Made by a program: the position numbers and the translations under genes
Notes under the pieces: generated by a model
Databases searched by the model: none
The model's input: only the letters and a program-made list of their open reading frames with translations
What the model was told of the DNA's origin: nothing
Virus record (IMG/VR): IMGVR_UViG_3300025778_000009
Origin: a virus
Taxonomy: Duplodnaviria; Heunggongvirae; Uroviricota; Caudoviricetes
Direction: 5' to 3' (one strand)
DNA: 64,000 nucleotides
Part shown: in pieces, positions 1,682 to 18,144 of the stretch
How the letters are laid out: the number at the start of each line of letters is the position of its first letter
Numbering within the stretch: position 1 is the stretch's first letter

Positions 1682-1746
1682 ATTTTAACCTCAATAAATA
1701 CATTGTATACTACTAATATATATTATCTTAATTAATTAGGCAACAT

Positions 1747-4700
1747 ATGTCATCAGATATTTTAAATCAGCATCTAATCGGTAATGGAAGTAACACTCAA
1801 TTCACCTTATTAGAAGCTGTTGCCAATACTAGCTCTATTCTAGTAACTATCAACGGTCTAGTATCAGATCCTGACAGAGATTATACGGTTTCAGATAATT
1901 TATTATTATTTAATACCGCTCCATATAGTACTTCAGATATTGAAATTAGATATTTACCTGTAGTTCCCGTAGGATATACTGGGTCTGCAGGTGAACCTGC
2001 TGGTTACACTGGTTCTGCAGGACCAGTAGGAGCTCCTTCAGATATTCAGACTATAGTAGCTACTGGTTCATCTTATTACACTTTAACATCTACTCCTAAT
2101 TCTTCTAAAAATATATTAGTATCTGTAAATGGACTCTTACAGGTTCCAGAAGCTGATTATACTGTTTCTGGTTCTACTATTAATTTTAATACTATACCAG
2201 TAGAATTATCTGACATTGAAATAATTTATTTTGGTAATGTTGTAGGTTATAGAGGTTCTGCAGGGTTTCAAGGTTCTGTCGGATTTACAGGTTCTATTGG
2301 TTACAGTGGTAATGATGGATACACTGGTTCGATTGGTTACACAGGTTCTATAGGTGGTGCAGGTCCAGCTGGTTACACAGGTTCTGGTGGTGTAGCAGCC
2401 CCATCTGGTTTTCAAACATTTTTAACAGATAATAGAACTTCTTATCCTATTGATAGGGTAGTAGCATCATCTAAAGATATCTTAGTTTCCGTTAACGGGT
2501 TAATACAAGTACCTGACGCAGACTATATTGTTGTTGGTTCTAATATTAACTTTATAACAAAACCAAGTAATAATTCTGATGTAGAAATTTTATACTTTGA
2601 TGTTGCAGGGTTTATTGGTTCTACTGGTTATCTTGGTTCAACTGGGTTTAAAGGTTCTTCCGGTGACAACGGCTTACCAGGTTTCGTAGGATCCCAAGGT
2701 TATACAGGCTCTTCTGGTTTTGTCGGTTCTATGGGGTATGTTGGTTCTGGTGGTGTTGCCGCACCTTCAGAAATACAAACTATAGTTGCTGATGGTTCTA
2801 GTACATATACTTTAACAAGATATGTTGTTGATCCTAAACATATTTTTGTTATCGTTAACGGTCTTATTCAGATTGCAGATAGAGATTATACTGCAGCTGC
2901 AACTACCCTTACTTTCTATAATCCTCCTAATAATACTTCTGAAATTGAAATAATTTATTTTGAAGAAGCATTAGGATATCGAGGTTCTGTAGGTTATGCA
3001 GGTTCTGCAGGTACACCTGGAGGATCTACTGGTTATACTGGTTCTAGAGGAACTGACGGTTCCTTTGGATATACGGGTTCTACTGGTTATGTTGGTTCTG
3101 CTGGTGTTGGAGCTCCTTCTTCATATCAAATTTTATATGCAAATGGCTCTAATACAGTATTTACGTTAACATCTTCTGTTGATGCAGCTAAAAATATCCT
3201 TGTTTCTGTTAACGGTCTATTACAAATACCAGATACCGATTATACTGTATCCGGAACAACTATTTTATTTACTAATCCACCTAGTGATACTTCTCATATT
3301 GAAGTTTTATATTTTGATGTTTCTGGATATAGAGGTTCCACTGGTTATATGGGATCTAAAGGTGATCCTGGCGGTGATACTGGTTATACTGGCTCTATAG
3401 GTCCAAAAGGTGATATTGGTCCATTAGGTTATACTGGTTCTGTTGGATTTGGTTACACAGGTTCTGCAGGCCCTGTAGGTGCACCAACAAATTATCAAAC
3501 TATTGTTACAACATTTAATCAATCAACTTATAGTTTAAATCAAGATGTTGCACAAGCAGTAAGTATAATCGTTACTATAAACGGTCTTGTTCAAGTACCA
3601 GATCAAGACTATACCCTTCCTACTTCTAATACAATTACATTTACCAATACTCCAAATCCTAATTCTGATGTTGAAATTTTATATTTTTCTGCATCAGGAT
3701 TTACTGGATCAAGAGGTGCAGTAGGCTATCTAGGTTCAGTAGGTTATCAAGGTACTGTTGGTTTTAGCGGGTCGGCTGGTATTACTGGTTATATGGGATC
3801 TGCAGGGTCTGGGTTTACTGGCTCTATAGGTTATTCAGGATCTACAGGGTTTGCAGGATCTAGAGGAAGTTTAGGTTATACCGGCTCTATTGGTATTGGA
3901 TACACAGGTTCAGTTGGTTCTGGTTATACTGGTTCTACTGGTGCTGGGTATACCGGCTCTATCGGTTCATTAGGTTATACTGGTTCACAAGGATTTCAAG
4001 GTCTTACTGGTTATAGAGGTTCTACTGGTAGTACTGGTTTTGTAGGTTCTATTGGTTTAACAGGATCTATAGGTTATACAGGCTCTACTGGTGCCGGATT
4101 TGTTGGTTCTAGAGGTTTTGTTGGTTCTATTGGTTCACTAGGTTACACCGGATCTATTGGATTTACAGGTTCTATTGGTTATTCTGGTTCTAGAGGTGAT
4201 ATTGGTTTCTCTGGTTCAATAGGCTCGTTAGGTTATACAGGTTCTATTGGTATTGGATATACCGGTTCTACAGGAGCCCCTGGTGGTATTACGTATAACT
4301 ATAGATTCATTAATACACCTGTTGTTACTCCTGCATTTACTCAACAAGGTTATGCAGTTTTTAGTGCAACATCAAATGCTATTTACGTTACATCTGCTGA
4401 CCTAGCAGGAGCAAATACTGCATACTTTATAGAGTATGCATTAAAATCAGTTAATAATAGTATAAAAGGGTTTGTAACTTTATCAAGAGCTTCGACACCT
4501 TATGATGTTACAATATATTCAACTAACACTGCTATCTATTTCCCTTATCCTGCAGTACCTGCATTTCATAAAATATATCTTTCTTATCTGTCTGGTAATA
4601 CTACACCTTACTTAGACAATGAAATAATTAACATTTCATTTACGTTAACTGGAAGTCAAGGACCTAAAGGTGATAAGGGCGATATTGGTTATACTGGTTC

Positions 4701-7700
4701 TGCAGGTCCAGCTGGTCCTTCTGGTGCATTTGCTGGTATGGGTTATACCGGTTCTATTGGTTCATTGGGTTATTCTGGATCTATTGGATATACTGGTTCT
4801 ATAGGTATACAAGGTTCAATTGGCCCACAAGGCTACACAGGCTCTGTTGCTAACCCATCAGCTCCTGTAAGACAGAACTTTAACGGTGACGGTGTAACTA
4901 ACACATACAGTATTGATATCGGTCAAAACGTTAACGGTTATACACCTTATCAATTAGACGTTTATATTAACGGTGTAAAACTCTTTAACGGTATAGATGT
5001 CGATGTATCATCTGGTAATACCATACACTTTATTACCCCACCGAGAAAAGATGATAATATCGAAGTTGTAGGGTCATATATTTTCTCTACAAACCCAGAT
5101 AGTGCAGCATTATTTGGACCTAGAGGTTATACTGGGTCTGCTGGTCCACCTAACGGATATCAAGGATCTTTAGGTGAAACTGGCTATGTAGGTTCTAGAG
5201 GTTATACAGGTTCAACACCTAATCCTTCTGCACCTGTAAGACAAAATTTTAACGGTGATGGTACAACCAATACTTACTATATTGATATTGGTCAGAATGT
5301 AAATGGTTATACACCTTATCAGCTAGATGTTTATGTCAACGGTGTTAAGCTTTTCAATGGTATTGATGTTGATGTATCTTCTGGTAACTCTATTCATTTT
5401 ATTACACCACCTAGAATAAACGATAACATTGAAATAGTTGGATCTTATATCTTTTCAACTAATCCAGACAGTGCTGCATTGTTTGGTCCAAGAGGGTATA
5501 CTGGATCTCAAGGTCCACCAAACGGGTATCAAGGTTCTATTGGTGACATTGGTTATACTGGTTCTAGAGGCGATACTGGGTTTTCTGGTTCTGCTGGTAC
5601 TATTGGTTACTCTGGTTCTGGTGTAAGTTTTAGAAGTTACTATAATAATACTACAAATTACTATATTAATGATTTAGTAGAAGAAGATGGTGCCACTTAC
5701 ATTGCTATTGCACCTAGTATAGGAGAAGATCCTAAAACTAGCAACACATACTGGCAATTATTTGCTAGCAAAGGATATCAAGGTTCTAGAGGTTATACAG
5801 GTTCTACTCCTAACCCATCGTCTCCTGTAAGACAAAACTTTAACGGTGATGGTGTTTCTAGAACTTATTATATTGATATTGGGCAAAATGTCAATGGTTA
5901 TACTCCTTACGAGTTAGATGTATTCGTAAACGGTATTAAATTGTTTAACGGTCTTGATGTTGATGTATCATCTGGTAATGCTATTCACTTTGTAATACCG
6001 CCGAGAATAAACGATAATATCGAAGTAGTAGGGTCATATATTTTCTCTACTAATCCTGATCAAAATGCATTATTTGGGCCAAGAGGTTATACTGGTTCAG
6101 CAGGATTAAACGGGGCTGGTAATTCATTTACTAAAATTGTTGTTAGCGGTCAACCAGATTTAGTAGCATTAGAAGCAGATACTCTTCAAATAGTTGCTGG
6201 TGATAATATAGTTATATCAACTAACAATATTAATTCACCTAAAACTTTAACAATTTCTACATCACTGCCATCTGGTGCATCTGGTTATACAGGTTCGCAA
6301 GGTATAACGGGTTATATAGGTTCTATAGGAATTACCGGTTATACAGGATCAAGAGGATCTGATGGTGTTATAGGTTATAGTGGAAGTATAGGTTTCACAG
6401 GTTCTAAAGGGTCTGATGGCACTATAGGTTATACAGGATCGCAAGGTAATATAGGAAATACTGGAGATACTGGCTATACCGGATCAAGTGGAATAGACGG
6501 TGCAGTAGGTTATAATGGAAGTATAGGGTTCACAGGTTCTAAAGGGTCTGATGGTACTATAGGTTATACTGGATCTACAGGACCTGTAGCCGGATATGAT
6601 ACTCAAATTATATTTAATGATGGTAGTTATGCTAATGGTTCTTATGGATTAACTTATAATAAATCTACTCAAACATTAAACATAGGAAATAATCTTTATG
6701 TAGGTGGTAACATTTATATCACCGGCAACACTACAACTTTTGCTGCTAATAATTTAGAAATAGTAGATAATATGATCTACTTAAATTCTAATAGTGAATA
6801 TTCAAATCCCGATATTGGTTTTGCTGCAAATTATAATGACGGTGAATATCATCATACCGGTTTCTTTAGAGATCATGCAACAGGTATTTGGAAGGTATTT
6901 GAAAATTATAAACCAGAACCGCAAGCATCACAATTTATTGATCAATCTAATAATACCTTTAGAATAGCAGATTTTCAAGCAAATACTATTTTTGCTAATT
7001 CAATATATGCAAATGGTTCTTACGGTTCTTTTGGTCAAGTACTTATTTCTAATGGTTCAGGAATATTCTGGTCAACTTCTGCATTAGGGTTTAATGGTTC
7101 AACAGGGTATCAAGGTTCTTTAGGTGATACTGGCTACAAAGGTTCAATTGGTTACCAGGGTTCAGTTGGTAATCAAGGTATTTTTGGTTACCAGGGTTCT
7201 TCTGGCTACCAAGGATCAGTTGGTTATCAAGGAACTGTAGGTTTTCAAGGTTCAGCTGGCGCTACCGCCGATGCTGGTTATCAAGGAAGTGCAGGTTATC
7301 AGGGATCAGTAGGATTTCAAGGATCTTATGGATATCAAGGTACTGTAGGATTCCAAGGTTCTATAGGAGCTGTTGGATATCAAGGATCAGCAAGTGTTGG
7401 CTATAACGGTTCTACTGGATTTAATGGTTCTATAGGTAATAGAGGTCCTATAGGTTATACTGGATCAAAAGGTCAAGGATTTAATTGGAGAGGAGCTTGG
7501 GACGGAACACATAATGATTTTGGTGATTATCAAGTATACCTTCCTTATGATGTAGTACAATATGATCTAAACACATATGTTTGTATAGTATTATGTTATG
7601 GTGATTCTGGTACTCCTGCTGCAAGAACAGATTTATGGCAGATATTTGCAGAAGGTGTAGTAGGTTATGTTGGATCTAAAGGTCAAGATGGTGTACTGGG

Positions 7701-8370
7701 TTATAATGGTTCTATAGGTTATACAGGCTCAAAAGGTGATAATGGCGTTATTGGATATAACGGTTCTATAGGATATACAGGTTCTACTGGATTTGTTGGA
7801 TCTTCTGGAGCATCAGTTTATCAAGGCTATACTGGATCTACTGGTTATCAGGGTTCTAAAGGTGAAAGTTCTTATATTACCTCTGATACTGCACCTTCTA
7901 GTCCTTTAGTTGGAGATAGATGGTATAATACTACAGCTGGTATTGAACTAGTATGGACTTATGATGGTAATTCTTATCAGTGGGTAGAATTAGCTGCAAG
8001 CGGTTTCTTAGGTATGACCGGATATTCTGGTTCAATAGGAACTATAGGGTATACAGGTTCAGCTGCACAATCATTAATAAATTCAACTCAAAGTTCAATT
8101 TATGTTTTACAATCTTCGGATGATGGTAAATTAATTAATACATCTTATAGCGTTACTATACCTTCAAATGTATTTACAGCAGGTCAGACAATTACAATAT
8201 ATAACAGTAGCCAAACTAACGGTATTACAGTTACTCAAGGAAGCGGCACAACCGTATATTTGGTTAATACTACTTCTGTTGGAGACAGAACAGTAGGAGT
8301 AAATGGTATTGCAGTTATAATATGCGTGGATAATAATACTTTTGTTATTTCTGGTGGTGGTGTATCTTAA
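1747..8370 (+). CDS. giant (2207 aa) collagen-like fiber protein. It has six N-terminal ~75-aa repeated beta-domains separated by G-x-y tracts, long G-Y-T-G-S-x collagen-like tracts, three tandem ~100-aa domains, and a C-terminal globular region.
   Basis: Gly occurs at every third residue over hundreds of residues, in the pattern GYTGSIGFTGSIGYSGS. The module xQTIVAxGSxxYTLTxxxxxKNILVSVNGLLQVPDxDYTVSGxTIxFxxxPxxSDIEIxYF recurs six times. The block NPSAPVRQNFNGDG...FGPRGYTGS recurs three times. Confidence 0.8.
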   Translation: MSSDILNQHLIGNGSNTQFTLLEAVANTSSILVTINGLVSDPDRDYTVSDNLLLFNTAPYSTSDIEIRYLPVVPVGYTGSAGEPAGYTGSAGPVGAPSDIQTIVATGSSYYTLTSTPNSSKNILVSVNGLLQVPEADYTVSGSTINFNTIPVELSDIEIIYFGNVVGYRGSAGFQGSVGFTGSIGYSGNDGYTGSIGYTGSIGGAGPAGYTGSGGVAAPSGFQTFLTDNRTSYPIDRVVASSKDILVSVNGLIQVPDADYIVVGSNINFITKPSNNSDVEILYFDVAGFIGSTGYLGSTGFKGSSGDNGLPGFVGSQGYTGSSGFVGSMGYVGSGGVAAPSEIQTIVADGSSTYTLTRYVVDPKHIFVIVNGLIQIADRDYTAAATTLTFYNPPNNTSEIEIIYFEEALGYRGSVGYAGSAGTPGGSTGYTGSRGTDGSFGYTGSTGYVGSAGVGAPSSYQILYANGSNTVFTLTSSVDAAKNILVSVNGLLQIPDTDYTVSGTTILFTNPPSDTSHIEVLYFDVSGYRGSTGYMGSKGDPGGDTGYTGSIGPKGDIGPLGYTGSVGFGYTGSAGPVGAPTNYQTIVTTFNQSTYSLNQDVAQAVSIIVTINGLVQVPDQDYTLPTSNTITFTNTPNPNSDVEILYFSASGFTGSRGAVGYLGSVGYQGTVGFSGSAGITGYMGSAGSGFTGSIGYSGSTGFAGSRGSLGYTGSIGIGYTGSVGSGYTGSTGAGYTGSIGSLGYTGSQGFQGLTGYRGSTGSTGFVGSIGLTGSIGYTGSTGAGFVGSRGFVGSIGSLGYTGSIGFTGSIGYSGSRGDIGFSGSIGSLGYTGSIGIGYTGSTGAPGGITYNYRFINTPVVTPAFTQQGYAVFSATSNAIYVTSADLAGANTAYFIEYALKSVNNSIKGFVTLSRASTPYDVTIYSTNTAIYFPYPAVPAFHKIYLSYLSGNTTPYLDNEIINISFTLTGSQGPKGDKGDIGYTGSAGPAGPSGAFAGMGYTGSIGSLGYSGSIGYTGSIGIQGSIGPQGYTGSVANPSAPVRQNFNGDGVTNTYSIDIGQNVNGYTPYQLDVYINGVKLFNGIDVDVSSGNTIHFITPPRKDDNIEVVGSYIFSTNPDSAALFGPRGYTGSAGPPNGYQGSLGETGYVGSRGYTGSTPNPSAPVRQNFNGDGTTNTYYIDIGQNVNGYTPYQLDVYVNGVKLFNGIDVDVSSGNSIHFITPPRINDNIEIVGSYIFSTNPDSAALFGPRGYTGSQGPPNGYQGSIGDIGYTGSRGDTGFSGSAGTIGYSGSGVSFRSYYNNTTNYYINDLVEEDGATYIAIAPSIGEDPKTSNTYWQLFASKGYQGSRGYTGSTPNPSSPVRQNFNGDGVSRTYYIDIGQNVNGYTPYELDVFVNGIKLFNGLDVDVSSGNAIHFVIPPRINDNIEVVGSYIFSTNPDQNALFGPRGYTGSAGLNGAGNSFTKIVVSGQPDLVALEADTLQIVAGDNIVISTNNINSPKTLTISTSLPSGASGYTGSQGITGYIGSIGITGYTGSRGSDGVIGYSGSIGFTGSKGSDGTIGYTGSQGNIGNTGDTGYTGSSGIDGAVGYNGSIGFTGSKGSDGTIGYTGSTGPVAGYDTQIIFNDGSYANGSYGLTYNKSTQTLNIGNNLYVGGNIYITGNTTTFAANNLEIVDNMIYLNSNSEYSNPDIGFAANYNDGEYHHTGFFRDHATGIWKVFENYKPEPQASQFIDQSNNTFRIADFQANTIFANSIYANGSYGSFGQVLISNGSGIFWSTSALGFNGSTGYQGSLGDTGYKGSIGYQGSVGNQGIFGYQGSSGYQGSVGYQGTVGFQGSAGATADAGYQGSAGYQGSVGFQGSYGYQGTVGFQGSIGAVGYQGSASVGYNGSTGFNGSIGNRGPIGYTGSKGQGFNWRGAWDGTHNDFGDYQVYLPYDVVQYDLNTYVCIVLCYGDSGTPAARTDLWQIFAEGVVGYVGSKGQDGVLGYNGSIGYTGSKGDNGVIGYNGSIGYTGSTGFVGSSGASVYQGYTGSTGYQGSKGESSYITSDTAPSSPLVGDRWYNTTAGIELVWTYDGNSYQWVELAASGFLGMTGYSGSIGTIGYTGSAAQSLINSTQSSIYVLQSSDDGKLINTSYSVTIPSNVFTAGQTITIYNSSQTNGITVTQGSGTTVYLVNTTSVGDRTVGVNGIAVIICVDNNTFVISGGGVS

Positions 8371-9134
8371 TGAGTATTTTTAATGCTATAACTTCTATAC
8401 CCTATCAAGCTGCATATTTGCCAGCTGGAGTTTCATACGGAAGCGCGCTTCTTAACAATCTATATGTTGGTAATTCAGATAGAAGTTTAGGATCAGGGTA
8501 TCTTTATACTTCCCGTACAGGTGGATTTATTACTTCCGGCTCACTAAATGATTTTACTATAGAAGCATGGATATATCCTAAGTGGTTTAGTTATTCTGGT
8601 GGATATTATAATATGGTTATTATGAGTACCCACACTGGAAGTGGAAATCCAGGATGGGAATTTAAATTACAAGGTCCTTCTGCATCTAGATGGACTTCTT
8701 TAACTTTACGTAATCAAAGAATTTCAACAGATTATCAATTTCCTATAAATTTAGGAGGAAGTGATCTTAACAAATGGTATCATGTTGCCATAGTATATAC
8801 TTCATCTAATCATAGTTTAATTGGTTATTTAAATGGGAATGTATTATCATCTATATCTCCAGCTTATTTTTCAGATAATAATATTCTTCATGTTGGATTT
8901 AATTATACATACTTCCCTTATTGGTTTAAGGGAAACCTTACTAATTTAAGAATATCTAAAACTGCAAGATATACTAATTATTTTACACCATCTGTAGCAC
9001 ACAATATAGCAGATAGTAATGATACATTTATAATGAATATGCCAACAAGTAATTTTTTACAAGAAGATACCGGACTAACTATTTTATATTCAGGTGATCC
9101 TAGTGTAGTTTCACAAGATAATAATCACCCTTAA
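8370..9134 (+). CDS. structural protein with a ConA/LamG-like lectin-fold motif
   Basis: The motif WYHVAIVYTSSNHSLIGYLNGNV matches the LamG/ConA pattern W-H-hA-h-...-LYhNG. The start overlaps the upstream stop as TAATGA, which suggests translational coupling. Confidence 0.5.
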   Translation: MSIFNAITSIPYQAAYLPAGVSYGSALLNNLYVGNSDRSLGSGYLYTSRTGGFITSGSLNDFTIEAWIYPKWFSYSGGYYNMVIMSTHTGSGNPGWEFKLQGPSASRWTSLTLRNQRISTDYQFPINLGGSDLNKWYHVAIVYTSSNHSLIGYLNGNVLSSISPAYFSDNNILHVGFNYTYFPYWFKGNLTNLRISKTARYTNYFTPSVAHNIADSNDTFIMNMPTSNFLQEDTGLTILYSGDPSVVSQDNNHP

Positions 9135-9167
9135 TAAATATTATATAACATTAACCTATGAATAAAA

Positions 9168-11195
9168 ATGACAATTATTGATTTTCCTAATAGCCCAGCA
9201 GATGGTGATATCTATACATTTGGAAATAAATCCTGGCAATGGAATGCGTCAGGAAACTATTGGTTTGCAATATCAAAAACAATAGGCTATTCAGGCTCGA
9301 TAGGGTATACCGGATCTTCTGGTGCATCTGTATACATGGGATATACCGGGTCACAAGGATATTATGGTTCTACCGGGTTTCAAGGCTCTTTAGGCTATGA
9401 TGGTTCTATTGGATATACAGGATCTATAGGTTATACAGGTTCAACTGGATTTCAAGGATCAGCTGGGTTTGTAGGATCTCAAGGAACAAGTGGTGTTATA
9501 GGATATATTGGCTCTTCTGGTTTTACTGGTTCTACCGGGTTTAATGGTTCAGTAGGGTTTATAGGTTCTATAGGTTATTCTGGATCCATAGGTTACAACG
9601 GTTCTTTTGGTTTTACTGGTTCTACCGGGTTTAATGGGTCGGTAGGATTTACTGGATCACTAGGTTATACAGGATCTTTAGGTTACAGCGGTTCTATTGG
9701 GTATACTGGTTCTACAGGGTTTAATGGGTCGATAGGTTTTACAGGATCATTAGGTTTTACAGGATCATTAGGTTATAACGGTTCTACTGGATTTCAAGGG
9801 TCGTCAGGATTTAATGGATCTATAGGTTTTAACGGATCTATTGGATATACAGGTTCAATAGGGTATATAGGATCAGCTGGTTTTCAAGGGTCAACTGGTT
9901 TTCAAGGATCAGTAGGATTTATAGGGTCATTAGGATTTACTGGATCCCAAGGTGTTAACGGTGTAATAGGCTATAATGGATCGGTAGGATTTACAGGGTC
10001 AATTGGATATACAGGGTCTGCTTCTACTACACCGGGATATAATGGTTCTTTTGGGTATACTGGTTCGCAAGGTGCAAACAGTTTATACACACAATCTAAT
10101 ACTGCTCCTCTATATCCTAATCCAGGTGATAGATGGTTTAATACTGATATTGGAATTGAGTTAGTATACACAACAGATGCTAACGGTTCACAGTGGGTAG
10201 AAATTGCATCTAGCGGATTTTTAGGTCAAACTGGTTATAATGGGTCTCAAGGTGTTATCGGGTATACTGGATCACAAGGCATTCAAGGCATTATAGGTTA
10301 TTCTGGTTCAGTAGGATTTAACGGATCTATTGGATTTACAGGTTCAACAGGATTTACGGGCTCTACTGGTTTTAACGGATCGATTGGATTTGTAGGATCT
10401 ATAGGTTTTACAGGTTCTATTGGTACAGGGTATGTAGGTTCTAAAGGGTTTAATGGTTCAATAGGTGCAACAGGTTATGTTGGATCTACAGGATCAACAC
10501 CTACTATAACTTATACTTCACCTACTATGAACGTGTTTACATCTGGTTCTGGAACATATACAACACCAGGAAGTGTTGTGTGGATACGCGTACGAATGAT
10601 AGGCGGTGGCGGTGGCGGTGGTGGTGGTGGCACTAATAATTCAACCACATATAATTCAGTATATGCAGGAGCAAACGGAACTGCAACAACGTTTGGTGGT
10701 ACTTTACTAGTATGTAATCCTGGTCAAGGTGGTTTTGGTGCATATGATCTGCAATATGGTTTTGGAGGTACTGCTTCTATTGGTGATACTTCAAAAGCAT
10801 TTGGTATTGCATTAAACGGTGCATCTGGAGAACCAGGTTGGTCATCATCTCCTTCTACTTATGTTTCTGGTGGTTCTGGTGGTGCATCACCTTTTGGAGG
10901 TGCAGGGGCAAGAGGTTCTGGTGGTACAACCCCGGATGCAGTTTCAATTGCTGCGTCACCAAATACAGGAAGCGGCGGCGGAGGTGGTGGCAGCACTAAC
11001 GCTACTAACGCAAGAGGCGGCGGCGGTGGAGGCGCTGGAGGTTACATAGATGTTATAATAAGAATTCCAGATGCAACGTATTCATATGTAGTAGGTACTG
11101 GCGGAAGAGGTGGAGCTAACGGTACATCACAGTCTGGTTCAGGTAACACAGGTGCTTCTGGTATTATTATGATTGAAGAGCATTATGGTAGCTAA
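9168..11195 (+). CDS. collagen-like fiber protein with a conserved N-terminal adaptor module and a C-terminal Gly-rich module
   Basis: The N-terminus MTIIDFPNSPADGDIYTFGNKSWQWNASGNYW is followed by about 270 residues of G-x-y. It then carries the TAPLYPNPGDRWFNTDIGIELVYT motif, and the C-terminal ~230 aa are rich in poly-Gly, resembling the ORF at 15905. Confidence 0.75.
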   Translation: MTIIDFPNSPADGDIYTFGNKSWQWNASGNYWFAISKTIGYSGSIGYTGSSGASVYMGYTGSQGYYGSTGFQGSLGYDGSIGYTGSIGYTGSTGFQGSAGFVGSQGTSGVIGYIGSSGFTGSTGFNGSVGFIGSIGYSGSIGYNGSFGFTGSTGFNGSVGFTGSLGYTGSLGYSGSIGYTGSTGFNGSIGFTGSLGFTGSLGYNGSTGFQGSSGFNGSIGFNGSIGYTGSIGYIGSAGFQGSTGFQGSVGFIGSLGFTGSQGVNGVIGYNGSVGFTGSIGYTGSASTTPGYNGSFGYTGSQGANSLYTQSNTAPLYPNPGDRWFNTDIGIELVYTTDANGSQWVEIASSGFLGQTGYNGSQGVIGYTGSQGIQGIIGYSGSVGFNGSIGFTGSTGFTGSTGFNGSIGFVGSIGFTGSIGTGYVGSKGFNGSIGATGYVGSTGSTPTITYTSPTMNVFTSGSGTYTTPGSVVWIRVRMIGGGGGGGGGGTNNSTTYNSVYAGANGTATTFGGTLLVCNPGQGGFGAYDLQYGFGGTASIGDTSKAFGIALNGASGEPGWSSSPSTYVSGGSGGASPFGGAGARGSGGTTPDAVSIAASPNTGSGGGGGGSTNATNARGGGGGGAGGYIDVIIRIPDATYSYVVGTGGRGGANGTSQSGSGNTGASGIIMIEEHYGS

Positions 11196-11215
11196 TAAAA
11201 AGGTTTTTATTTTTA

Positions 11216-11830
11216 ATGAGTATTAATTTTCCTGCTAACCCAACACCTAATCAAGTATACACACTAGGTAGTAAAACTTGGACTTGGAATGCAGTATATG
11301 GTTACTGGCAGGCAACATCTACAACCATTGGGTATACCGGTTCACAAGGTAACCAAGGTTACTTAGGTTATACTGGTTCAACTGGGTTTCAAGGATCAGT
11401 TGGATACCAAGGATCAACTGGGTATCAAGGATCTGTAGGTTTTCAAGGATCTGCTGGGTTTCAAGGATCTGCTGGGTTTCAAGGATCTGCTGGGTTTCAA
11501 GGGTCAGCAGGATTTAATGGATCTTTCGGTTATACAGGATCTCTTGGTTATGCTGGATCTATAGGTCTTGCAAATGCTGTAGTTAGTGATACTGCTCCAG
11601 GTACTCCTGCTACTGGCCAATTATGGCTAGACTCTTCTACTGGTCTGCTAAATATATGGTATTCTCCTTCTAATGTGTGGCTTTCGGTAACATCAGTAGG
11701 CATTCAAGGACAGACCGGTTATGCTGGTTCTGTGGGAAATCCTGGACCTGCAGGAGGAGCTACTGGTTATCAAGGGTCAGCTGGCTCTCTAAGTGCAGCT
11801 ATAGGTATATCAATTATTTTTGGAATTTAA
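11216..11830 (+). CDS. short collagen-like fiber protein sharing the N-terminal adaptor module
   Basis: The N-terminus is MSINFPANPTPNQVYTLGSKTWTWNAVYGYW, followed by G-(Y/F)-Q-G-S repeats and the motif DTAPGTPATGQLWLDSSTGLLNIWY. Confidence 0.7.
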   Translation: MSINFPANPTPNQVYTLGSKTWTWNAVYGYWQATSTTIGYTGSQGNQGYLGYTGSTGFQGSVGYQGSTGYQGSVGFQGSAGFQGSAGFQGSAGFQGSAGFNGSFGYTGSLGYAGSIGLANAVVSDTAPGTPATGQLWLDSSTGLLNIWYSPSNVWLSVTSVGIQGQTGYAGSVGNPGPAGGATGYQGSAGSLSAAIGISIIFGI

Positions 11831-11841
11831 GAGAATAGCAA

Positions 11842-12195
11842 ATGGCAAACCCAAATATTTTAGCTTTATCTTCTGTAACTGGTAAATCTAATACTGCTCA
11901 GATAACTACTGGTGGTGTTACTATACTATCAGGATCAGCCGGTACTGTTCTTAAAGTAAATACATTAATGATCGGTAATATGGACGGTGTTACTGCATAT
12001 GGTGTTACTATGAACTACAATAACGGTATCACTAGTGTTACAGTAGCTAACAATATATCTGTTCCTGCACAATCTACTCTTACTATCATAGATAAAACTG
12101 CCACATTTTATATGGAAGAAAATCATACTATAGTTTTATATGCATCGCAAAATAATAAATTAAATAGTATTATTAGTTATGAGATAATGTCCTAA
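11842..12195 (+). CDS. hypothetical virion protein
   Basis: Clean ORF within the fiber operon with a Thr/Ser/Asn-rich composition. Confidence 0.45.
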   Translation: MANPNILALSSVTGKSNTAQITTGGVTILSGSAGTVLKVNTLMIGNMDGVTAYGVTMNYNNGITSVTVANNISVPAQSTLTIIDKTATFYMEENHTIVLYASQNNKLNSIISYEIMS

Positions 12196-13376
12196 TGATT
12201 ATTAACGGCGGTGTAAAAGGTATTTACAATATTCCTTCTACGGCCAGCGCGTCTGGAGTATGGTCAAGATTTGATCAAAATATAAACAAATCTTTAGGAA
12301 GATGGCCTATTGCAGCAGGAAATACAGCATCTCCTGTTATTGCATCTACAATTAGTGTATCCCCTTATGTTAAAGTAATTAATTTTTTTCCAGGCTCTGG
12401 TTTTGGTACAACGTTTTCTAATCCTGGAACATTACCTAGCGGACCGGGTAACGATATACAATTTTCTCCTGATAATAGCAGTATTGTATGGGTAGAGTTG
12501 AGCGGTGGTATAGTAAAAGTATTAAGTTGGGGTAGCACTGGTTTTGGTTCAACATTGTCTAATATAACTGTAGGCAGTACATATTATGCAAAAAGTGCTC
12601 AAATTAGTCCTTCAGGTAACTTTATTGCCATTAGATTTGTAACAAATCTTAGTGTAGGATATGTTAGTATATACAATTTTAATGCAACTACAGGAATAGG
12701 GTCTTTTCGATCATCAGCAACTGTTGGAACAGATAATATTACCTCAAATGGATATGATTTTGTTAAATGGTCACCGTTAGAAGATTCTATTATTACAACT
12801 ACCTATAATAGTCCGTCAAGTACTTTATATGGGTTTACTTTCAACTCTATTACAGGTGTAATAGGAACTGCTGTAGAATTAGAATTTGCAGCTAACTATG
12901 ACTATTATAGAGGTTCTATTCATCCTTCAGGTAAAGCTTTAGCTATAGGTGGTTCTTTTTTAAGCTTACATCTTTTTTCTTATTCATCTTCTACAGCGTC
13001 TGCTGTTTCTGCAGGCTCTGTTGGTACAGGTGGATCTGCTGCAGTAGATGCAAGTTATTCTAAAGACGGGACATTCTTATTAGCTTCAACGCCAAGTAAT
13101 ATATATATTCATTCTACTAATTCAGTTAACGGTGCTTATATATCTACTATAACCTCCTCTGCCACTGGATATACAACAGGTAGAAGTACAATATCATATA
13201 GTTCTTCTGACATCTTATATGATTTATCAAACACTACATCATATGGAATAAGAGGTTACCCAGTAACTAGAACAGGCTCTGTACCTACAGGTATAGGTAC
13301 ATCTTATTCCGCTTCTTTTACTTCAGGATCTTCTGTAACTACATATTCAATAGTAACAAACAATTATAATTATTAA
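12195..13376 (+). CDS. hypothetical virion protein, possibly with a beta-propeller-like repeat architecture
   Basis: Blade-like segments recur, such as ISPSGNFIAIRF, IHPSGKALAIGG and YSKDGTFLLAST. The start overlaps the stop of the previous gene. Confidence 0.4.
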   Translation: MIINGGVKGIYNIPSTASASGVWSRFDQNINKSLGRWPIAAGNTASPVIASTISVSPYVKVINFFPGSGFGTTFSNPGTLPSGPGNDIQFSPDNSSIVWVELSGGIVKVLSWGSTGFGSTLSNITVGSTYYAKSAQISPSGNFIAIRFVTNLSVGYVSIYNFNATTGIGSFRSSATVGTDNITSNGYDFVKWSPLEDSIITTTYNSPSSTLYGFTFNSITGVIGTAVELEFAANYDYYRGSIHPSGKALAIGGSFLSLHLFSYSSSTASAVSAGSVGTGGSAAVDASYSKDGTFLLASTPSNIYIHSTNSVNGAYISTITSSATGYTTGRSTISYSSSDILYDLSNTTSYGIRGYPVTRTGSVPTGIGTSYSASFTSGSSVTTYSIVTNNYNY

Positions 13377-13389
13377 AAGGAGTTTTATT

Positions 13390-13752
13390 ATGGATTTTTT
13401 TACTATTACAGATGCGGATAAAAAACTAACAATTGCAAGAAATATTGTTATGAGAGAACAAGAAATACATGCATACGAATTAAATGTAATAAATTATCAA
13501 GTAATTTTAGATTCTCTTCCAAAAGATGAATGGCCAGCAGTTATTAGTGCATATAAAGAAACACCTATTCAAAACGTTCCTTCAGATTATCATGATCTAG
13601 TAAATGACTATCAATTTAGAGAGCGTGTTAGACATCTTATAGCAACAGAAAAGCATGAAATGAATAAATCAGTGAAAGTATATCAAGCTTTGTTAACACA
13701 GATACCAGCAGAAGAATTGCCAGATCTATTAAAAGCAGCACAACAAGTTTAA
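13390..13752 (+). CDS. hypothetical protein
   Basis: 120-aa ORF with an RBS-like AAAGGAG upstream and a non-repetitive helical composition. Confidence 0.4.
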   Translation: MDFFTITDADKKLTIARNIVMREQEIHAYELNVINYQVILDSLPKDEWPAVISAYKETPIQNVPSDYHDLVNDYQFRERVRHLIATEKHEMNKSVKVYQALLTQIPAEELPDLLKAAQQV

Positions 13753-13758
13753 TAAAAA

Positions 13759-15903
13759 ATGTCACTAAGTTTTCCTAGTAGCCCTAGTATCGGTAATTTA
13801 TATTTTTCTGGTGGTAACACCTGGAAATGGACTGGTACCACATGGGTTATAGTAGGTAGTTCTGGCTTTCAAGGATCTATAGGGTTTCAAGGTTCTTCTG
13901 GTGCTATCGTAGCACCAGGCAGCACATCACAAGTATTATATAATGATGGTGTTTATGCTAATGCATCAGCTGGGTTAACATTTAGTAAAACTAGTAACAA
14001 TTTATTTGTTGGTAATACTTTAATTGCAAATTCTATATCTGCTAACGGATATATTGGTTCAGCAGGCCAACTTTTATATTCTAATTCTTCCGGTGGAATA
14101 TATTGGGCAAATGCTGCAGGCGGGTTTGCAAATGGTCAATCTATTGCAGTAAACGTTTTGACAGTTAATAGTTCATTAACTGCAAACGGTATAACAATTC
14201 ACAATGCTAATTTAGTCGCAAATAGTATTACTATTCATAATGCTAACGTAATATTTTCTACAACATTACCTTTAACATCACCTGCTGGTATTATAGCAAA
14301 CGGCTCTATTGGTACAGCATTTCAAACTCTATTATCTAACGGCACGGGGTTATATTGGGATAGTAATACCTATGTCTCTAACTCTTATTTTTCTACTAGT
14401 GGTGTAGGAGTATCTAATTCTTATGCATCAGCTACATATGTTACCAATAATACAATTAATTCCGCCAACATAATTTTAGGTGTTGCAAATGTTACTTTTA
14501 ATAGTAATGTAGTACATAATGCTAACATAACAATTAATGCTGTTTCTGCATATACGACATTTGCATCAAAAAATTATGTGTTTAATGCAAATACTATGGC
14601 TATTTTAACAAATAATTTTAGCACATATGCAACAACATTAAGTTCATCACAATATGTTAATATCGGTACTGGAACAACCTCAGTTTATGCTGGTAATGGT
14701 TATGGCTTTACTTCAGAATTTTTTGTTAAATTTAATACTCTTTCAACAACTTCAACATTGACACCTATGTGGTTTGATAATACAGGTGGTGGAGGTCGTC
14801 CAAATCAATATGCATTATTTGCTAATACTACTACGTTATCAGCTTCTCAAATTGGATACGGTACAATATTTACATTAACAGGATTAACAATTGCAACTGG
14901 TGTGTGGTATCATATGGCCTGGATAGGCTTTAATAATAACATGTATTTTGCAATTAATGGTACTGTTTATGATTTAAATACAGTTCCATCTAATGGAAAT
15001 TTTGCAACCGGGTATCCGTACAATTGGGGTGGTATATATAATCTTTCAAATGCTACCTATTCAAACATAAGAGTTGTTGCAAACAATAATATTTACTCCA
15101 TACATGGGTTTATTCCTCCAAACGCACCATTAAATGCACCCCCAGGCACATCCTTGTTAAATTTTCAATCTAGTACTTTTGCTGATTCTATTACAGGTAC
15201 TTTATTATCTACTACTGGAACACCCACTTTATCAACAACGACTATAAACTTATATCCCACAGCTAATAACAATTTAGTAAGTGGTACTATTAATAATGGA
15301 AATGCTATATTTCAATCTGTAACAACAAACTATATTCAAACACCTACATTGTATGTGTATGGAGCTAATGGTGCTGCTTCTACTTTATATGTTTCTAATG
15401 GTGTTTTATTAATAGGAAATACATCTGTTAACTCAGTTCATAATAGTAAATCATTATCCATTTATGATTCAATTGCAGTAAGCAATCTTACTATTAATTC
15501 TACTTCTATTGCTATATCAAATAGTACAATAACTAATGCTAAAATTTCTCCAGTTCAGACACTTACTGTTGCCTTGTCTGATGAATCAACTCAAATAACA
15601 CAAGGTATTAAAATTGTAACAAGAGCTCCTTATGCCATGACATTAGTACCTCCCTATGCAAGAATATCTTTATCAATAACAGGTACAACAACAACATCCG
15701 TAGATATTACATCTGGCGGATCTTCTATATTTTCGGCAACCCCATCATTAGCATCTGGTGTAATTTCTAATACAGGACCTGCATCTATGTCAGCAACAGG
15801 ATTAGCCACTATTGCAGATGATACACAATTACAATTTAGTGTGTCTGCTAACGGCGCTGGTGCTAGCGGGTTAAAAGCAACACTATATTATGTAAAGATC
15901 TAA
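13759..15903 (+). CDS. fiber protein with the N-terminal adaptor module, a short collagen-like tract and a LamG-like motif
   Basis: The N-terminus is MSLSFPSSPSIGNLYFSGGNTWKWTGTTW, followed by GFQGSIGFQGSSG. A LamG-like motif VWYHMAWIGFNNNMYFAINGTVY occurs later. The protein is Thr/Asn/Ser-rich. Confidence 0.65.
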   Translation: MSLSFPSSPSIGNLYFSGGNTWKWTGTTWVIVGSSGFQGSIGFQGSSGAIVAPGSTSQVLYNDGVYANASAGLTFSKTSNNLFVGNTLIANSISANGYIGSAGQLLYSNSSGGIYWANAAGGFANGQSIAVNVLTVNSSLTANGITIHNANLVANSITIHNANVIFSTTLPLTSPAGIIANGSIGTAFQTLLSNGTGLYWDSNTYVSNSYFSTSGVGVSNSYASATYVTNNTINSANIILGVANVTFNSNVVHNANITINAVSAYTTFASKNYVFNANTMAILTNNFSTYATTLSSSQYVNIGTGTTSVYAGNGYGFTSEFFVKFNTLSTTSTLTPMWFDNTGGGGRPNQYALFANTTTLSASQIGYGTIFTLTGLTIATGVWYHMAWIGFNNNMYFAINGTVYDLNTVPSNGNFATGYPYNWGGIYNLSNATYSNIRVVANNNIYSIHGFIPPNAPLNAPPGTSLLNFQSSTFADSITGTLLSTTGTPTLSTTTINLYPTANNNLVSGTINNGNAIFQSVTTNYIQTPTLYVYGANGAASTLYVSNGVLLIGNTSVNSVHNSKSLSIYDSIAVSNLTINSTSIAISNSTITNAKISPVQTLTVALSDESTQITQGIKIVTRAPYAMTLVPPYARISLSITGTTTTSVDITSGGSSIFSATPSLASGVISNTGPASMSATGLATIADDTQLQFSVSANGAGASGLKATLYYVKI

Positions 15904-15904
15904 T

Positions 15905-16843
15905 ATGAGTACCTATCTTTTAAATGAATATATAGGTGCTGGTTATAGTGATGGTCTAATAATTCCACCTGCAGCACCGTCACAAATTATTTTTACTACA
16001 GTAGGTGCATATTCATGGGCAGTACCACTAGGAGTAACTAGAATATGTGTTGTTGCAGTTGGGGGAGGTGGTGGAGGTGCAAATATAGCCAACGCTGGAG
16101 GAGGTGGCGGAGGTGGTTTAGTATATCTGAACAATTACACAGTAAAAGCTGGTGATATTGTTTCAGGAATCGTAGGAGATGGTGGTACAGCAAATACAGT
16201 AGGTGTTTCTACTACAGTACTTGTTAATGGATCTAATATAATTACTGCTCAGGGTGGAAGTGGAGGATCTGGTACTGTTGGTGGATCGGGAGGAAGTGGT
16301 ACTGGTATCTCAGGTATAGTTGCAAATTCAGGAGGAGCAGGAGGTAATTTTACTGGTTCTGGATCACCTTACGGTGCAGGTGGAGGTGGTGCTGCAGGTT
16401 ATTCAGGTGCTGGAGGACGTGGTGGATTTTCATCAGGAAACTCTGGAGGTATAGCAGCTATTGCAGGTGCAGGAGGTGGTGGCGGTGGCGGGGGAGCTGC
16501 TTACAGTACAAATAATACCGGTAGTGGTAGTGGTGCTGGAGGTGGTGGTGTTGGACTATTAGGTTCTGGTACAAATGGAACAGCTGGTACTCAAGGTTTT
16601 AGAAATACTCCTGTAAATCCTACTGGAGGCGGTGGTGGTTCAGGAGGAGCAGCTGGTACAAATGGCGGAGTTGTTAGTGCATCTGCTCCAGTTGGAGGAG
16701 CATACGGTGGTGGAGGCGGTGGTACACAGGGTGCTAACGGAAACCCTGCAGTTAACGGTAAAGGCGGGCAAGGTGCTGTAAGAATAATTTACGGTTATTC
16801 AACAGACACAAGAACATTTCCTTCTAATGCCGGGGATTTATAA
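15905..16843 (+). CDS. glycine-rich protein, homologous to the C-terminal module of the 9168..11195 protein
   Basis: YSWAVPLGVTRICVVAVGGGGGG parallels YTTPGSVVWIRVRMIGGGGGGGG in ORF 9168. Repeated GGxGG tracts run throughout. Confidence 0.55.
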   Translation: MSTYLLNEYIGAGYSDGLIIPPAAPSQIIFTTVGAYSWAVPLGVTRICVVAVGGGGGGANIANAGGGGGGGLVYLNNYTVKAGDIVSGIVGDGGTANTVGVSTTVLVNGSNIITAQGGSGGSGTVGGSGGSGTGISGIVANSGGAGGNFTGSGSPYGAGGGGAAGYSGAGGRGGFSSGNSGGIAAIAGAGGGGGGGGAAYSTNNTGSGSGAGGGGVGLLGSGTNGTAGTQGFRNTPVNPTGGGGGSGGAAGTNGGVVSASAPVGGAYGGGGGGTQGANGNPAVNGKGGQGAVRIIYGYSTDTRTFPSNAGDL

Positions 16844-16866
16844 TAAATTATCTTACCTTTGAATCT

Positions 16867-16874
16867 TATAAATA
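16867..16874 (+). promoter_or_regulatory. T4-type late promoter motif TATAAATA
   Basis: Exact TATAAATA lies about 35 nt upstream of the ATG at 16910. A gp55 homolog is encoded in this window. Confidence 0.4.
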
Positions 16875-16909
16875 CTTAAAAATACATTTACTTTTAGGAA
16901 AAATCTAAA

Positions 16910-18142: not shown

Positions 18143-18144
18143 AA

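What the first reader, a model, noticed from the sequence alone, without database searches (positions are those of the whole stretch)
9168..13860. Shared ~30-aa N-terminal module (M-x-I/L-x-F-P-x-S/N-P...G-x-x-Y-x-x-G-x-x-x-W-x-W) heading three different fiber proteins
The ORFs at 9168, 11216 and 13759 start with MTIIDFPNSPADGDIYTFGNKSWQWNASGNYW, MSINFPANPTPNQVYTLGSKTWTWNAVYGYW and MSLSFPSSPSIGNLYFSGGNTWKWTGTTW respectively. A conserved head on divergent shafts suggests a common baseplate or capsid attachment adaptor with exchangeable distal parts, i.e. modular fiber evolution.
Basis: seen in the sequence. Interest (0 to 1): 0.6.

Follow-up and report, generated by a model that had tools for sequence, protein, structure and literature searches.

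The report
Shared head module of phage fibres
Three tail-fibre genes of this T4-like phage begin with the same ~35-residue mini-domain, a widespread and uncatalogued 'head piece' that many phages put on very different fibres, probably to plug them onto the virion.

Summary
A profile built only from outside sequences hits the window's six-frame translation exactly three times, at 44-51 bits (next best 5), each at the start of ORFs 9168, 11216 and 13759.

The window holds three more, internal copies of a related variant. I call the N-terminal form 'N-type' (FPxSP..G[DQ]xY..WxW..W) and the internal form 'I-type' (APxxPxxGDxW..YxY..W). The I-type copies lie in ORFs 1747, 9168 and 11216.

Both belong to one large repeat family of about 35 residues: 4,407 cluster representatives match. 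It has no Pfam family and no solved structure found by sequence.

The N-type is strictly N-terminal. All 145 copies in 80 viral contigs lie within 4-21 residues of the first start codon. It heads at least 75 unrelated protein families, in T4-like cyanophages and in a T7-like podovirus.

AlphaFold2 gives a confident model (pLDDT 85): a three-stranded β-meander with a proline-rich arm.

Gene order follows a regular pattern, I, (N+I)n, N, and the window follows it too.

My best reading is a trimer-forming N-terminal docking head for accessory fibres. The attachment itself is inferred, not shown. It is a new variant of a known principle.

The parts
9168..9287 (+). N-type head module of ORF 9168 (MTIIDFPNSPADGDIYTFGNKSWQWNASGNYWFAISKTIG)
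   Evidence: Scores 48.1 bits with an HMM built from external sequences only. AlphaFold2 model of residues 1-40 has mean pLDDT 84.8, with strands at 15-18, 21-26 and 31-35.
11216..11332 (+). N-type head module of ORF 11216
   Evidence: Scores 51.0 bits with the external HMM. Aligned.
13759..13866 (+). N-type head module of ORF 13759
   Evidence: Scores 44.2 bits with the external HMM. These ~30 residues are the only part of this protein similar to cyanophage proteins.
7879..8007 (+). I-type (internal) module in ORF 1747, about 115 residues from its C-terminus (SDTAPSSPLVGDRWYNTTAGIELVWTYDGNSYQWVELAAS)
   Evidence: Scores 48.0 bits with the external I-type HMM. Also.
10092..10220 (+). I-type module in ORF 9168, lying between two collagen tracts
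   Evidence: Scores 48.5 bits. Also.
11582..11704 (+). I-type module in ORF 11216, lying between two collagen tracts
   Evidence: Scores 37.1 bits. Also.
1747..8370 (+). Giant (2207 aa) collagen-rich primary fibre gene. It has no N-type head and one I-type module near the distal end.
   Evidence: ORF list. Pfam Collagen E 1.8e-85, with a weak sub-threshold Phage_T7_tail hit in its N-terminal repeats. PHROG tail-fibre families.
9168..11195 (+). Fibre gene with the layout N-type head, collagen, I-type, collagen, glycine-rich C-terminal domain
11216..11830 (+). Short fibre gene with the layout N-type head, collagen, I-type, collagen, hydrophobic C-terminal tail (...AAIGISIIFGI)
   Evidence: The same kind of tail occurs in unrelated N-type proteins.
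13759..15903 (+). Fibre gene with an N-type head, five Gly-X-Y triplets, then a non-collagen shaft with a weak ConA-like lectin region. It has no I-type module.
   Evidence: Weak Laminin_G_3 hit, E 0.0053. No PHROG family and no phage tblastn match.

Best explanation
The three N-termini are copies of a real, autonomous mini-domain of about 32-36 residues, which I call the N-type head. Its consensus is M-A-[ILV]-[ND]-F-P-x-[SN]-P-x-x-[GN]-[DQ]-x-[YFH]-T-x-x-G-x-x-W-x-W-[ND]-G-x-x-W. It is predicted to be a three-stranded antiparallel β-meander, with the proline-rich N-terminal arm packed onto it.

It is the N-terminus-specific variant of a very widespread phage-fibre repeat of about 40 residues, which I call the I-type. 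Three I-type copies also lie inside the window's fibre genes.

I infer that the head forms the virion-proximal end of trimeric accessory fibres or spikes. In this reading it brings the three chains together, setting the register of the collagen or β-structure that follows. It also serves as the common plug by which otherwise unrelated distal parts are mounted on the particle, most likely on the primary fibre encoded just upstream.

Shown:
- the existence of the module, its homology to the I-type and its strict N-terminal position;
- its wide distribution and the diversity of what follows it;
- the conserved gene order.

Inferred: trimerisation, docking and the identity of the partner.
For: Reality of the module:
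- External HMMs hit only these three ORF starts, at 44-51 bits.
- The exhaustive profile search finds 4,407 cluster representatives at E<=1e-3.

Position:
- 54 of 152 top homologues have a copy at residue 8 or earlier, against 12.2 expected.
- The N-terminal copies form a distinct subtype: F before PxxP, a short hairpin, and Y/F/H instead of W.
- All 145 N-type copies in 80 IMG/VR loci lie 4-21 residues from the first start codon, including 65 copies that were not the search seed.

Homology to the internal repeat: hhalign probability 87.5%, E 3.6e-6.

Fold: AlphaFold2 mean pLDDT 84.8, with three strands and an ordered arm.

Modularity:
- The head precedes at least 75 protein families.
- Partners include peptidase S74 and He_PIG proteins, a pectin lyase, and C1q, lectin, tail-collar and glycine-rich proteins.
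- There are families of 50-70-aa mini-proteins that keep only the head plus a short tail. The same tails also end long fibres, ORF 11216 among them.

Context:
- The window's fibre cluster lies where T4 has gp9-gp12/wac, just upstream of the gp13/14/15 homologues.
- In S-H34, seven consecutive head-bearing genes abut the baseplate wedge genes.

Gene order:
- A fibre with a different N-terminal domain but carrying I-type module(s) lies upstream of the first N-type gene in 71 of 80 loci (49 of 53 non-redundant groups).
- It is directly adjacent in 40 loci.
- The window follows the commonest pattern: I, N+I, N+I, N.
- From established knowledge of phage fibres (T4 gp34-37, T7 gp17, P22 tailspike), the N-terminus is the virion-proximal end, and gene order often follows assembly order.
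Against: - There is no binding, structural or proteomic evidence for attachment, and no partner was identified.
- Only monomer models could be made, so trimerisation is untested.
- The head is homologous to a shaft repeat, so it may simply be the first (capping) repeat.
- The head occurs in both myoviruses and a podovirus, so no single baseplate partner can exist.
- The 80 viral loci are not phylogenetically independent.
Confidence: 0.5

Rival explanations
1. The module is a pure folding or trimerisation nucleus, like the T4 fibritin foldon. It only brings three chains into register, so that collagen or other trimeric shafts zip up from the N-terminus. In this reading it has no docking role, and the internal copies re-register the helix between collagen tracts.
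For: - All six window copies are immediately followed by Gly-X-Y tracts.
- The N-type aligns to the foldon (sequence recalled from memory; a text search did not find it) in the register FPNSPADGDIYTFGNKSWQ / [20 protein letters not shown]. This matches P, P, D, G, Y and W, with a single-comparison P of 0.0018.
- The predicted strands 1 and 2 coincide with the foldon hairpin under that alignment.
- The domains that follow the head (pectate lyase spikes, peptidase S74 fibres, C1q, collagen) are all trimeric by established knowledge.
Against: - The hhalign probability is only 14.7%. The I-type profile aligns to the foldon in a different register, at 25%.
- Pfam and PDB profile searches never retrieved fibritin or foldon-tagged chains, even at E<=10.
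- 38 of 51 N-type proteins have no collagen directly after the head.
- The idea does not explain why a distinct variant is used only at residue 1, why mini-proteins keep it, or why gene order is so regular.
- It is not exclusive with docking.
Confidence: 0.3
2. The module is an aromatic-rich carbohydrate-binding or cell-surface-binding unit, like CBM5/12 or cell-wall-binding repeats. Its repetition would give avidity for host glycans.
For: - The module is a small β-domain rich in W and Y.
- Some proteins carry arrays of up to 20 copies.
- 3 of 46 N-type sequences give weak CBM_5_12 hits, best E 0.0023.
- Other weak hits are to tectonin, Kelch and Y_Y_Y-type repeats.
Against: - All these hits are below family thresholds.
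- The conserved aromatic residues are needed for the core of a 30-residue domain.
- The head sits at the end of the fibre that is normally proximal to the virion, while recognised binding domains (lectin, C1q, pectate lyase) occupy the C-termini of the same proteins.
Confidence: 0.07
3. The similarity is chance, low-complexity similarity, or a trace of recent local duplication or gene conversion within this genome.
For: The motif is short, and the genes are neighbours rich in repeats.
Against: - External HMMs give 44-51 bits against a background of 5 bits.
- The DNA has diverged.
- Each window head has closer relatives in other phages than in its own genome, for example 59% identity to a head from another phage against 31-51% to the other two window heads.
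- At least 515 relatives were found in IMG/VR.
Confidence: 0.01

Closest known systems
T7 gp17 N-terminal tail-attachment domain (Pfam PF03906) and similar conserved N-terminal anchors of phage fibres and spikes (P22 tailspike head-binding domain; gp10-like docking domains of branched receptor-binding systems such as CBA120 and G7C; these examples are from general knowledge)
   Same: The principle is the same: a conserved N-terminal piece mounts interchangeable shafts and tips on the virion, and several paralogues per genome share it.
   Different: There is no sequence or fold relationship. The head here is only about 35 residues, against about 150. In podovirus S-TIP28 the gp17-like domain heads the primary fibre, while the N-type head is on two other proteins. 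The two are therefore distinct and co-exist.
T4 fibritin foldon (27-residue C-terminal trimerisation unit)
   Same: Both are similar in size. Both have a proline-rich arm followed by a β-hairpin. Both share the pattern PxxPxxG[QD]xY...W in the same spacing. The foldon is used artificially to nucleate collagen helices (general knowledge), whereas here the module naturally abuts collagen.
   Different: The foldon is C-terminal and has two strands rather than three. Profile similarity is not significant (probability 15-25%, with inconsistent registers). No Pfam or PDB search linked the two.
DUF2793 (Pfam PF10983), found in the RcGTA tail fibre Rcc00171 and in phage fibre proteins (PMC5026251)
   Same: It is a domain of phage and GTA tail-fibre proteins. 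A multi-copy I-type protein (P0008) reaches 30.8 bits against a cut-off of 27.
   Different: No window module, and almost no individual N-type or I-type copy, matches it: 0 of 46 and 1 of 50 at E<=1. In P0008 no single stretch passes on its own.
phiKZ inner-capsid protein gp184, modelled fragment (PDB 8Y6V chain I)
   Different: It is internal to its protein, sits inside a capsid, is described as a gap-filling piece rather than a fibre end (PMC11297242), and the significance is marginal.
Collagen XV/XVIII (multiplexin) trimerisation domains; also bacterial and phage collagen-like proteins with flanking globular domains (Scl2 V domain, BclA, C1q; the latter group from general knowledge)

Membership tests
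N-type fibre head (operational family defined here) | Starts within about 4-6 residues of the initiator Met, with F-P-x-x-P, [GN]-[DQ]-x-aromatic, W-x-[WY] and a final W 23-25 residues after the first P. | tested here: met
   All three window ORFs score 44-51 bits with an HMM built without them. Alignment.
I-type fibre repeat (operational family defined here) | An internal [AP]-P-x-x-P-x-x-G-[DQ]-x-W ... Y-x-Y ... W-V module of about 40 residues. | tested here: met
   Three window copies score 37-48 bits with the external HMM. Related to the N-type at hhalign E 3.6e-6.
Collagen triple helix repeat (PF01391), for the shafts that follow the heads | Pfam hit above the gathering score. | tested here: met
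   ORF 9168 scores 132 bits, ORF 11216 60.5 bits and ORF 1747 281 bits, against a cut-off of 27.2. ORF 13759 has only five Gly-X-Y triplets and gives no Pfam hit.
T4 fibritin foldon / Fibritin_C | Significant sequence or profile similarity to the foldon. | tested here: not met
   hhalign probability 14.7% (N-type) and 25.4% (I-type, in a different register). No Pfam hit at E<=10. No foldon-bearing PDB chain retrieved at E<=10.
T4 fibritin foldon / Fibritin_C | A proline-rich arm plus a β-hairpin that forms a trimer. | tested here: inconclusive
   The arm and hairpin (plus a third strand) are predicted with pLDDT 85. The oligomeric state is not testable with monomer prediction.
DUF2793 (PF10983) | Pfam hit above the gathering score (27 bits). 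| tested here: not met
   No hit for any window module. 0 of 46 N-type and 1 of 50 I-type copies hit at E<=1. Only the six-copy protein P0008 sums to 30.8 bits.
Phage_T7_tail (PF03906) | Pfam hit above the gathering score (25.2 bits). | tested here: not met
   No hit for the N-type heads. ORF 1747's N-terminal repeats reach only 13.1 bits.
WW domain | Sequence or fold match to WW domains. | tested here: not met
CBM_5_12 (PF02839) | Pfam hit above threshold. | tested here: not met
   3 of 46 N-type sequences hit, best E 0.0023. None of the window sequences hit.
Virion attachment adaptor (functional class) | Physical contact of the head with a baseplate, tail or fibre protein in the particle. 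| not testable with these tools
   Only indirect support is available: N-terminal position, modularity and gene order.

The most novel reading that the evidence does not exclude
The N-type head and the I-type module form a plug-and-socket pair of homologous mini-domains. In this reading, each fibre protein carries, about 100-250 residues from its distal end, an I-type 'socket'. The N-type 'plug' of the protein encoded next docks onto it. A primary fibre (I only) would thus be extended or branched by a daisy chain of N+I proteins and closed by an N-only protein. In this window the order would be ORF 1747, then 9168, then 11216, then 13759.

Evidence consistent with this:
- The gene-order patterns 'I N' (26 loci), 'I NI N' (16) and 'I NI NI N' (4) together account for 46 of 80 loci.
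- An I-only fibre lies upstream of the first N-type gene in 49 of 53 non-redundant groups.
- The number of heads equals the number of I-type modules in 34 of 53 groups, against 18 expected; 0 of 20,000 shuffles reached 34.
- I-type modules sit near distal ends, at a median of about 155 residues from the C-terminus.
- The same order is seen in P-SSM2, S-H34, S-TIP28 and a metagenomic cluster.

Confounders are shared ancestry of the loci, cluster size and contig truncation.
Probability: 0.22. Interest if true: 0.75.

Novelty: new variant of a known kind. Interest (0 to 1): 0.55.

Why it matters
Host range in marine T4-like cyanophages and their relatives is set by large, poorly annotated clusters of fibre genes. 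A 35-residue head that marks accessory fibres gives four practical gains:
- A simple annotation handle. It is absent from Pfam and has no solved structure.
- A defined junction for swapping receptor-binding parts.
- A candidate natural counterpart of the foldon-collagen fusions used in protein engineering.
- A concrete, testable model of how these phages assemble multi-protein or branched fibres, provided the plug-and-socket reading holds.

The general principle (conserved N-terminal anchor, exchangeable distal parts) is already known. The advance is therefore a new module family and its gene-order pattern, not a new concept.

Tried and rejected
- **Near-identical phage.** Megablast of the region and tblastn of ORF 13759 against 50,697 phage records found nothing. 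The phage is a distant T4-like myovirus: its major capsid protein is 66% identical to Stenotrophomonas phage DLP6 and 59% to Melnitz and Mosig.
- **Pfam.** I scanned the six window modules and all members of both alignments. No family matched.
- **PDB sequence searches.** Three profiles and one mini-protein gave nothing significant.
- **Word-indexed protein searches.** The first, with the six-copy profile, returned only two proteins, and the search with the I-type profile returned nothing. This reflects index sensitivity; the exhaustive search found thousands.
- **Foldon homology.** Tested and not established.
- **WW-domain and CBM5/12 resemblance.** Rejected as sub-threshold.
- **phiKZ gp184.** I read the capsid paper. 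The protein is an inner-capsid, gap-filling piece, so I keep it only as a possible fold relative.
- **RcGTA tail fibre (DUF2793).** Only a 6.8 Å map exists, so there is no atomic comparison.
- **Literature.** Searches for the motif, for a conserved N-terminus in cyanophage fibres, and for cyanophage baseplate cryo-EM found no description of it.
- **The search for related loci with the 46-sequence alignment.** This failed because the alignment was too diverse. A 12-sequence alignment worked.
- **Heterotrimer of the three window proteins (C1q-like).** Considered and rejected, because their collagen tracts differ greatly in length.


Full report
**What the window is.** It comes from a distant T4-like myovirus. 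It encodes homologues of gp13, gp14, gp15, both terminase subunits, sheath, tube, portal, prohead protease, scaffold and major capsid protein, in T4 order. The capsid protein is 66% identical to Stenotrophomonas phage DLP6 and about 59% to Methylophilales phage Melnitz and Pelagibacter phage Mosig. No near-identical phage record exists. The finding lies in a 18-kb cluster of fibre genes (1747-19680). This cluster occupies the place of T4 gp9-gp12/wac, upstream of an endolysin gene and the gp13 homologue.

**Checking the observation.** ORFs 9168, 11216 and 13759 begin with exactly the peptides quoted, and each ATG lies 1-8 codons after an in-frame stop. A loose pattern for the motif matches nothing else in six frames except fibre genes. 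To avoid circularity I built HMMs only from sequences outside the window. The N-terminal profile then hits the 62,740-residue six-frame translation exactly three times, at the three ORF starts, with 51.0, 48.1 and 44.2 bits. The next best hit is 5.0 bits. The three coding stretches have diverged at the DNA level, so this is conserved protein sequence and not a recent duplication.

Three further, internal copies of a related motif exist: SDTAPSSPLVGDRWYNTTAGIELVWTYDGNSYQWVELA in ORF 1747 (nt 7879-8007), one in ORF 9168 (10092-10220) and one in ORF 11216 (11582-11704). They differ from the N-terminal copies in three ways. They have A/P instead of F before PxxP. They have W instead of Y/F/H after G-[DQ]-x. 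Their first hairpin is four residues longer. I call the two variants N-type and I-type. Profile-profile comparison supports their homology (hhalign probability 87.5%, E 3.6e-6).

**How widespread the module is.**
- An exhaustive HMMER search of 1.84 billion cluster representatives with the six-copy profile gave 4,407 proteins at E<=1e-3 and 440 at E<=1e-10. Individual proteins carry up to 20 copies. The module is therefore a common repeat.
- Among the top 152 proteins (933 copies), 54 have a copy starting at residue 8 or earlier, against 12.2 expected from uniform placement.
- These N-terminal copies share the consensus MA[ILV][ND]FPx[SN]Pxx[GN][DQ]x[YFH]TxxGxxWxW[ND]GxxW.
- When copies are classified with separate HMMs, 814 I-type copies are internal. 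Only 2 are at an N-terminus, both in truncated ORFs. Of the N-type calls, 52 of 83 are at residue 1, and the rest belong to a third, tandem subtype.
- A scan of IMG/VR found at least 515 relatives. In the 80 loci kept (1.13 Mb, 53 non-redundant groups), all 145 N-type copies lie 4-21 residues from the first start codon of their ORF, and 131 of them lie at 4-6 residues. This includes 65 copies that were not the search seed.

**Where it occurs and how it is annotated.** tblastn of a consensus head finds 57 phage records:
- mostly T4-like cyanophages (P-SSM2 and P-SSM5 with 4 places each; S-H34, S-N03, MC09 and relatives with 6);
- Vibrio phages and an Actinomycetia phage;
- weaker matches in Aeromonas, Alteromonas, Enterobacter and Pantoea phages;
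- the T7-like cyanopodovirus S-TIP28.

The genes are labelled 'tail fiber protein', 'tail collar fiber protein', 'collagen triple helix repeat protein' or 'hypothetical'.

In S-H34, seven consecutive genes next to the baseplate wedge genes start with the head, and their C-terminal endings (...ADAEL...TTWTPINGATVS) recombine independently of it. In a metagenomic cluster, three consecutive genes carry it: a peptidase S74 protein, a 78-aa protein and a He_PIG protein.

BFVD structure matches (probability 1.0, TM about 0.8) list heads on collagen, tail-collar, glycine-rich, pectate-lyase, C1q, ConA-lectin, YadA-like and peptidase S74 proteins. In the IMG/VR sample the head precedes at least 75 protein families at 50% identity.

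There are also families of 50-70-aa mini-proteins made of the head plus a short tail. The same tails end long fibres too...IVFGG, compared with ...IIFGI in ORF 11216, and ...DGGxPSSNYGG....

Neither variant matches any Pfam family or any PDB sequence. I found no description in the searchable literature.

**Structure.** AlphaFold2 on ORF 9168 residues 1-40, with a 114-sequence alignment, gives mean pLDDT 84.8. The model has strands at 15-18, 21-26 and 31-35, preceded by an ordered proline-rich arm. A 78-aa protein with one N-type and one I-type module shows the same three strands twice, but its overall confidence is low (mean pLDDT 64.5) and the second half has pLDDT below 60.

From memory, the motif resembles the T4 fibritin foldon ([20 protein letters not shown]). 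hhalign aligns the N-type in exactly that register, with a P value of 0.0018 for this single pre-chosen comparison. However, the probability is only 14.7%, and the I-type aligns in a different register. I treat this as a mechanistic analogy, not as family membership.

**Gene-order pattern.**
- In 73 of 80 viral loci there is a fibre protein that carries I-type module(s) but a different N-terminal domain.
- This protein lies upstream, on the same strand, of the first N-type gene in 71 loci (49 of 53 groups). It is directly adjacent in 40 loci.
- Read along the strand, the commonest orders are 'I N' (26 loci), 'I NI N' (16) and 'I NI NI N' (4).
- The window follows the last pattern: ORF 1747 (I), ORF 9168 (N+I), ORF 11216 (N+I), ORF 13759 (N).
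- The same order holds in P-SSM2 (PSSM2_295, an I-type fibre, then PSSM2_296 with an N-type head) and in S-H34.
- It also holds in podovirus S-TIP28. There the gp17-like primary fibre carries an I-type module at residues 132-176, and a pectin-lyase protein and a 115-aa structural protein start with the head.
- Head and I-type counts are equal in 34 of 53 groups, against 18 expected. The last I-type copy usually lies about 100-250 residues from the C-terminus.
- These statistics are confounded by shared ancestry and by contig truncation.

**Interpretation.** The shown facts are these:
- the module is real, ancient and widespread;
- it has a dedicated N-terminal variant;
- that variant heads many unrelated distal parts;
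- it follows a regular gene order.

The function is inferred. I favour a trimer-forming, virion-proximal docking head for accessory fibres (confidence 0.5). The reasons are its absolute N-terminal position, the conservation of even the first five residues, the mini-proteins that keep head and tail but lose the shaft, and its position downstream of primary fibres. A pure foldon-like folding nucleus (0.3) is the main rival and is compatible with docking. A glycan-binding role (0.07) and chance or duplication (0.01) are unlikely.

The most novel reading not excluded is a plug-and-socket pairing of N-type heads with I-type modules, building daisy-chained or branched fibres (probability about 0.22).

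**Verdict.** The module is a new, uncurated family that instantiates a known principle. Interest is moderate (0.55).

Noticed in passing
window 1747-8370 (+): This is a giant 2207-aa fibre. It alternates collagen tracts with at least six copies of a ~70-aa domain (NGSNTxFTL...VNGLxQxPxxDYTVxGxxIxF...DIEIxYF), which gives a weak, sub-threshold match to the T7 tail-fibre N-terminal domain (13.1 bits). It also has three ~110-aa repeats (PSAPVRQNFNGDG...VGSYIF). Repeating a tail-attachment-like domain inside one protein is odd.
   Followed up: partly
window 11795-11830 (C-terminus of ORF 11216); also P0026, P0087, P0184, P0203 and IMG/VR loci L068, L084: A short hydrophobic C-terminal tail recurs: ...AAIGISIIFGI here, and ...IVFGG, ...MFFGG, ...FLLMGA, ...FMIGGV elsewhere. 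It ends both long fibres and 52-aa mini-proteins that consist only of the N-type head plus this tail. Its function is unknown; it might be a second connector.
   Followed up: partly
window 13918-14358 (ORF 13759 aa 54-200) versus window 6592-7092 (ORF 1747 aa 1616-1782): ORF 13759 and ORF 1747 share a second module (LYNDG.YAN...GLT..K....L.....L.......ANG..GS.GQ.L.S......W). BLASTP gives E 2e-6, with up to 52% identity over 54 residues.
   Followed up: no
window 15905-16843 (+) and the C-terminal third of ORF 9168 (about 10500-11195): These are glycine-rich domains (Pfam Gly_rich_2, 31 bits for ORF 15905). A Gly_rich_2 gene also sits next to the collagen/I-type fibre gene in the unrelated metagenomic cluster L001/L002, which suggests a conserved neighbour of this fibre system.
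   Followed up: no
window 1-1746: About 1.7 kb upstream of the fibre cluster has no ORF of 50 aa or more and no tRNA. Its GC skew is opposite to that of the rest of the window. It was not examined further.
   Followed up: partly
window 19691-20305 (+): An endolysin or chitinase-like gene (phrog_181, E 1e-74) is inserted between the fibre cluster and the gp13 homologue. This is an unusual place for a lysis gene in a T4-like gene order.
   Followed up: no
P0153-P0272 (metagenomic proteins); L008-L087: There are many conserved families of 50-70-aa proteins made only of the N-type head plus a 15-30-residue tail, for example ...NNASNQ.YD[IV]xVLxxMETN and ...GINLDGGVPSSNYGGINPLDGGTP. Some lie on contigs of 90-270 kb, so they look like real small genes and not fragments.
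   Followed up: partly
L006 (Synechococcus phage S-H34, NC_070965.1 62.9-74.3 kb): C-terminal endings recur among neighbouring fibre genes independently of their N-termini. ...ADAEL occurs in gp067, 065, 064, 061, 060 and 057. ...TTWTPINGATVS occurs in gp066, 063 and 059. This points to shuffling of both ends.
   Followed up: no
PDB 8Y6V chain I (phiKZ gp184 residues about 70-104): The only modelled part of this inner-capsid protein looks like the same mini-fold and motif (DLPTDPEPGDTYHVNGVDWIYQEDGGWV). This hints that the module is used outside fibres as a small protein-binding plug.
   Followed up: partly
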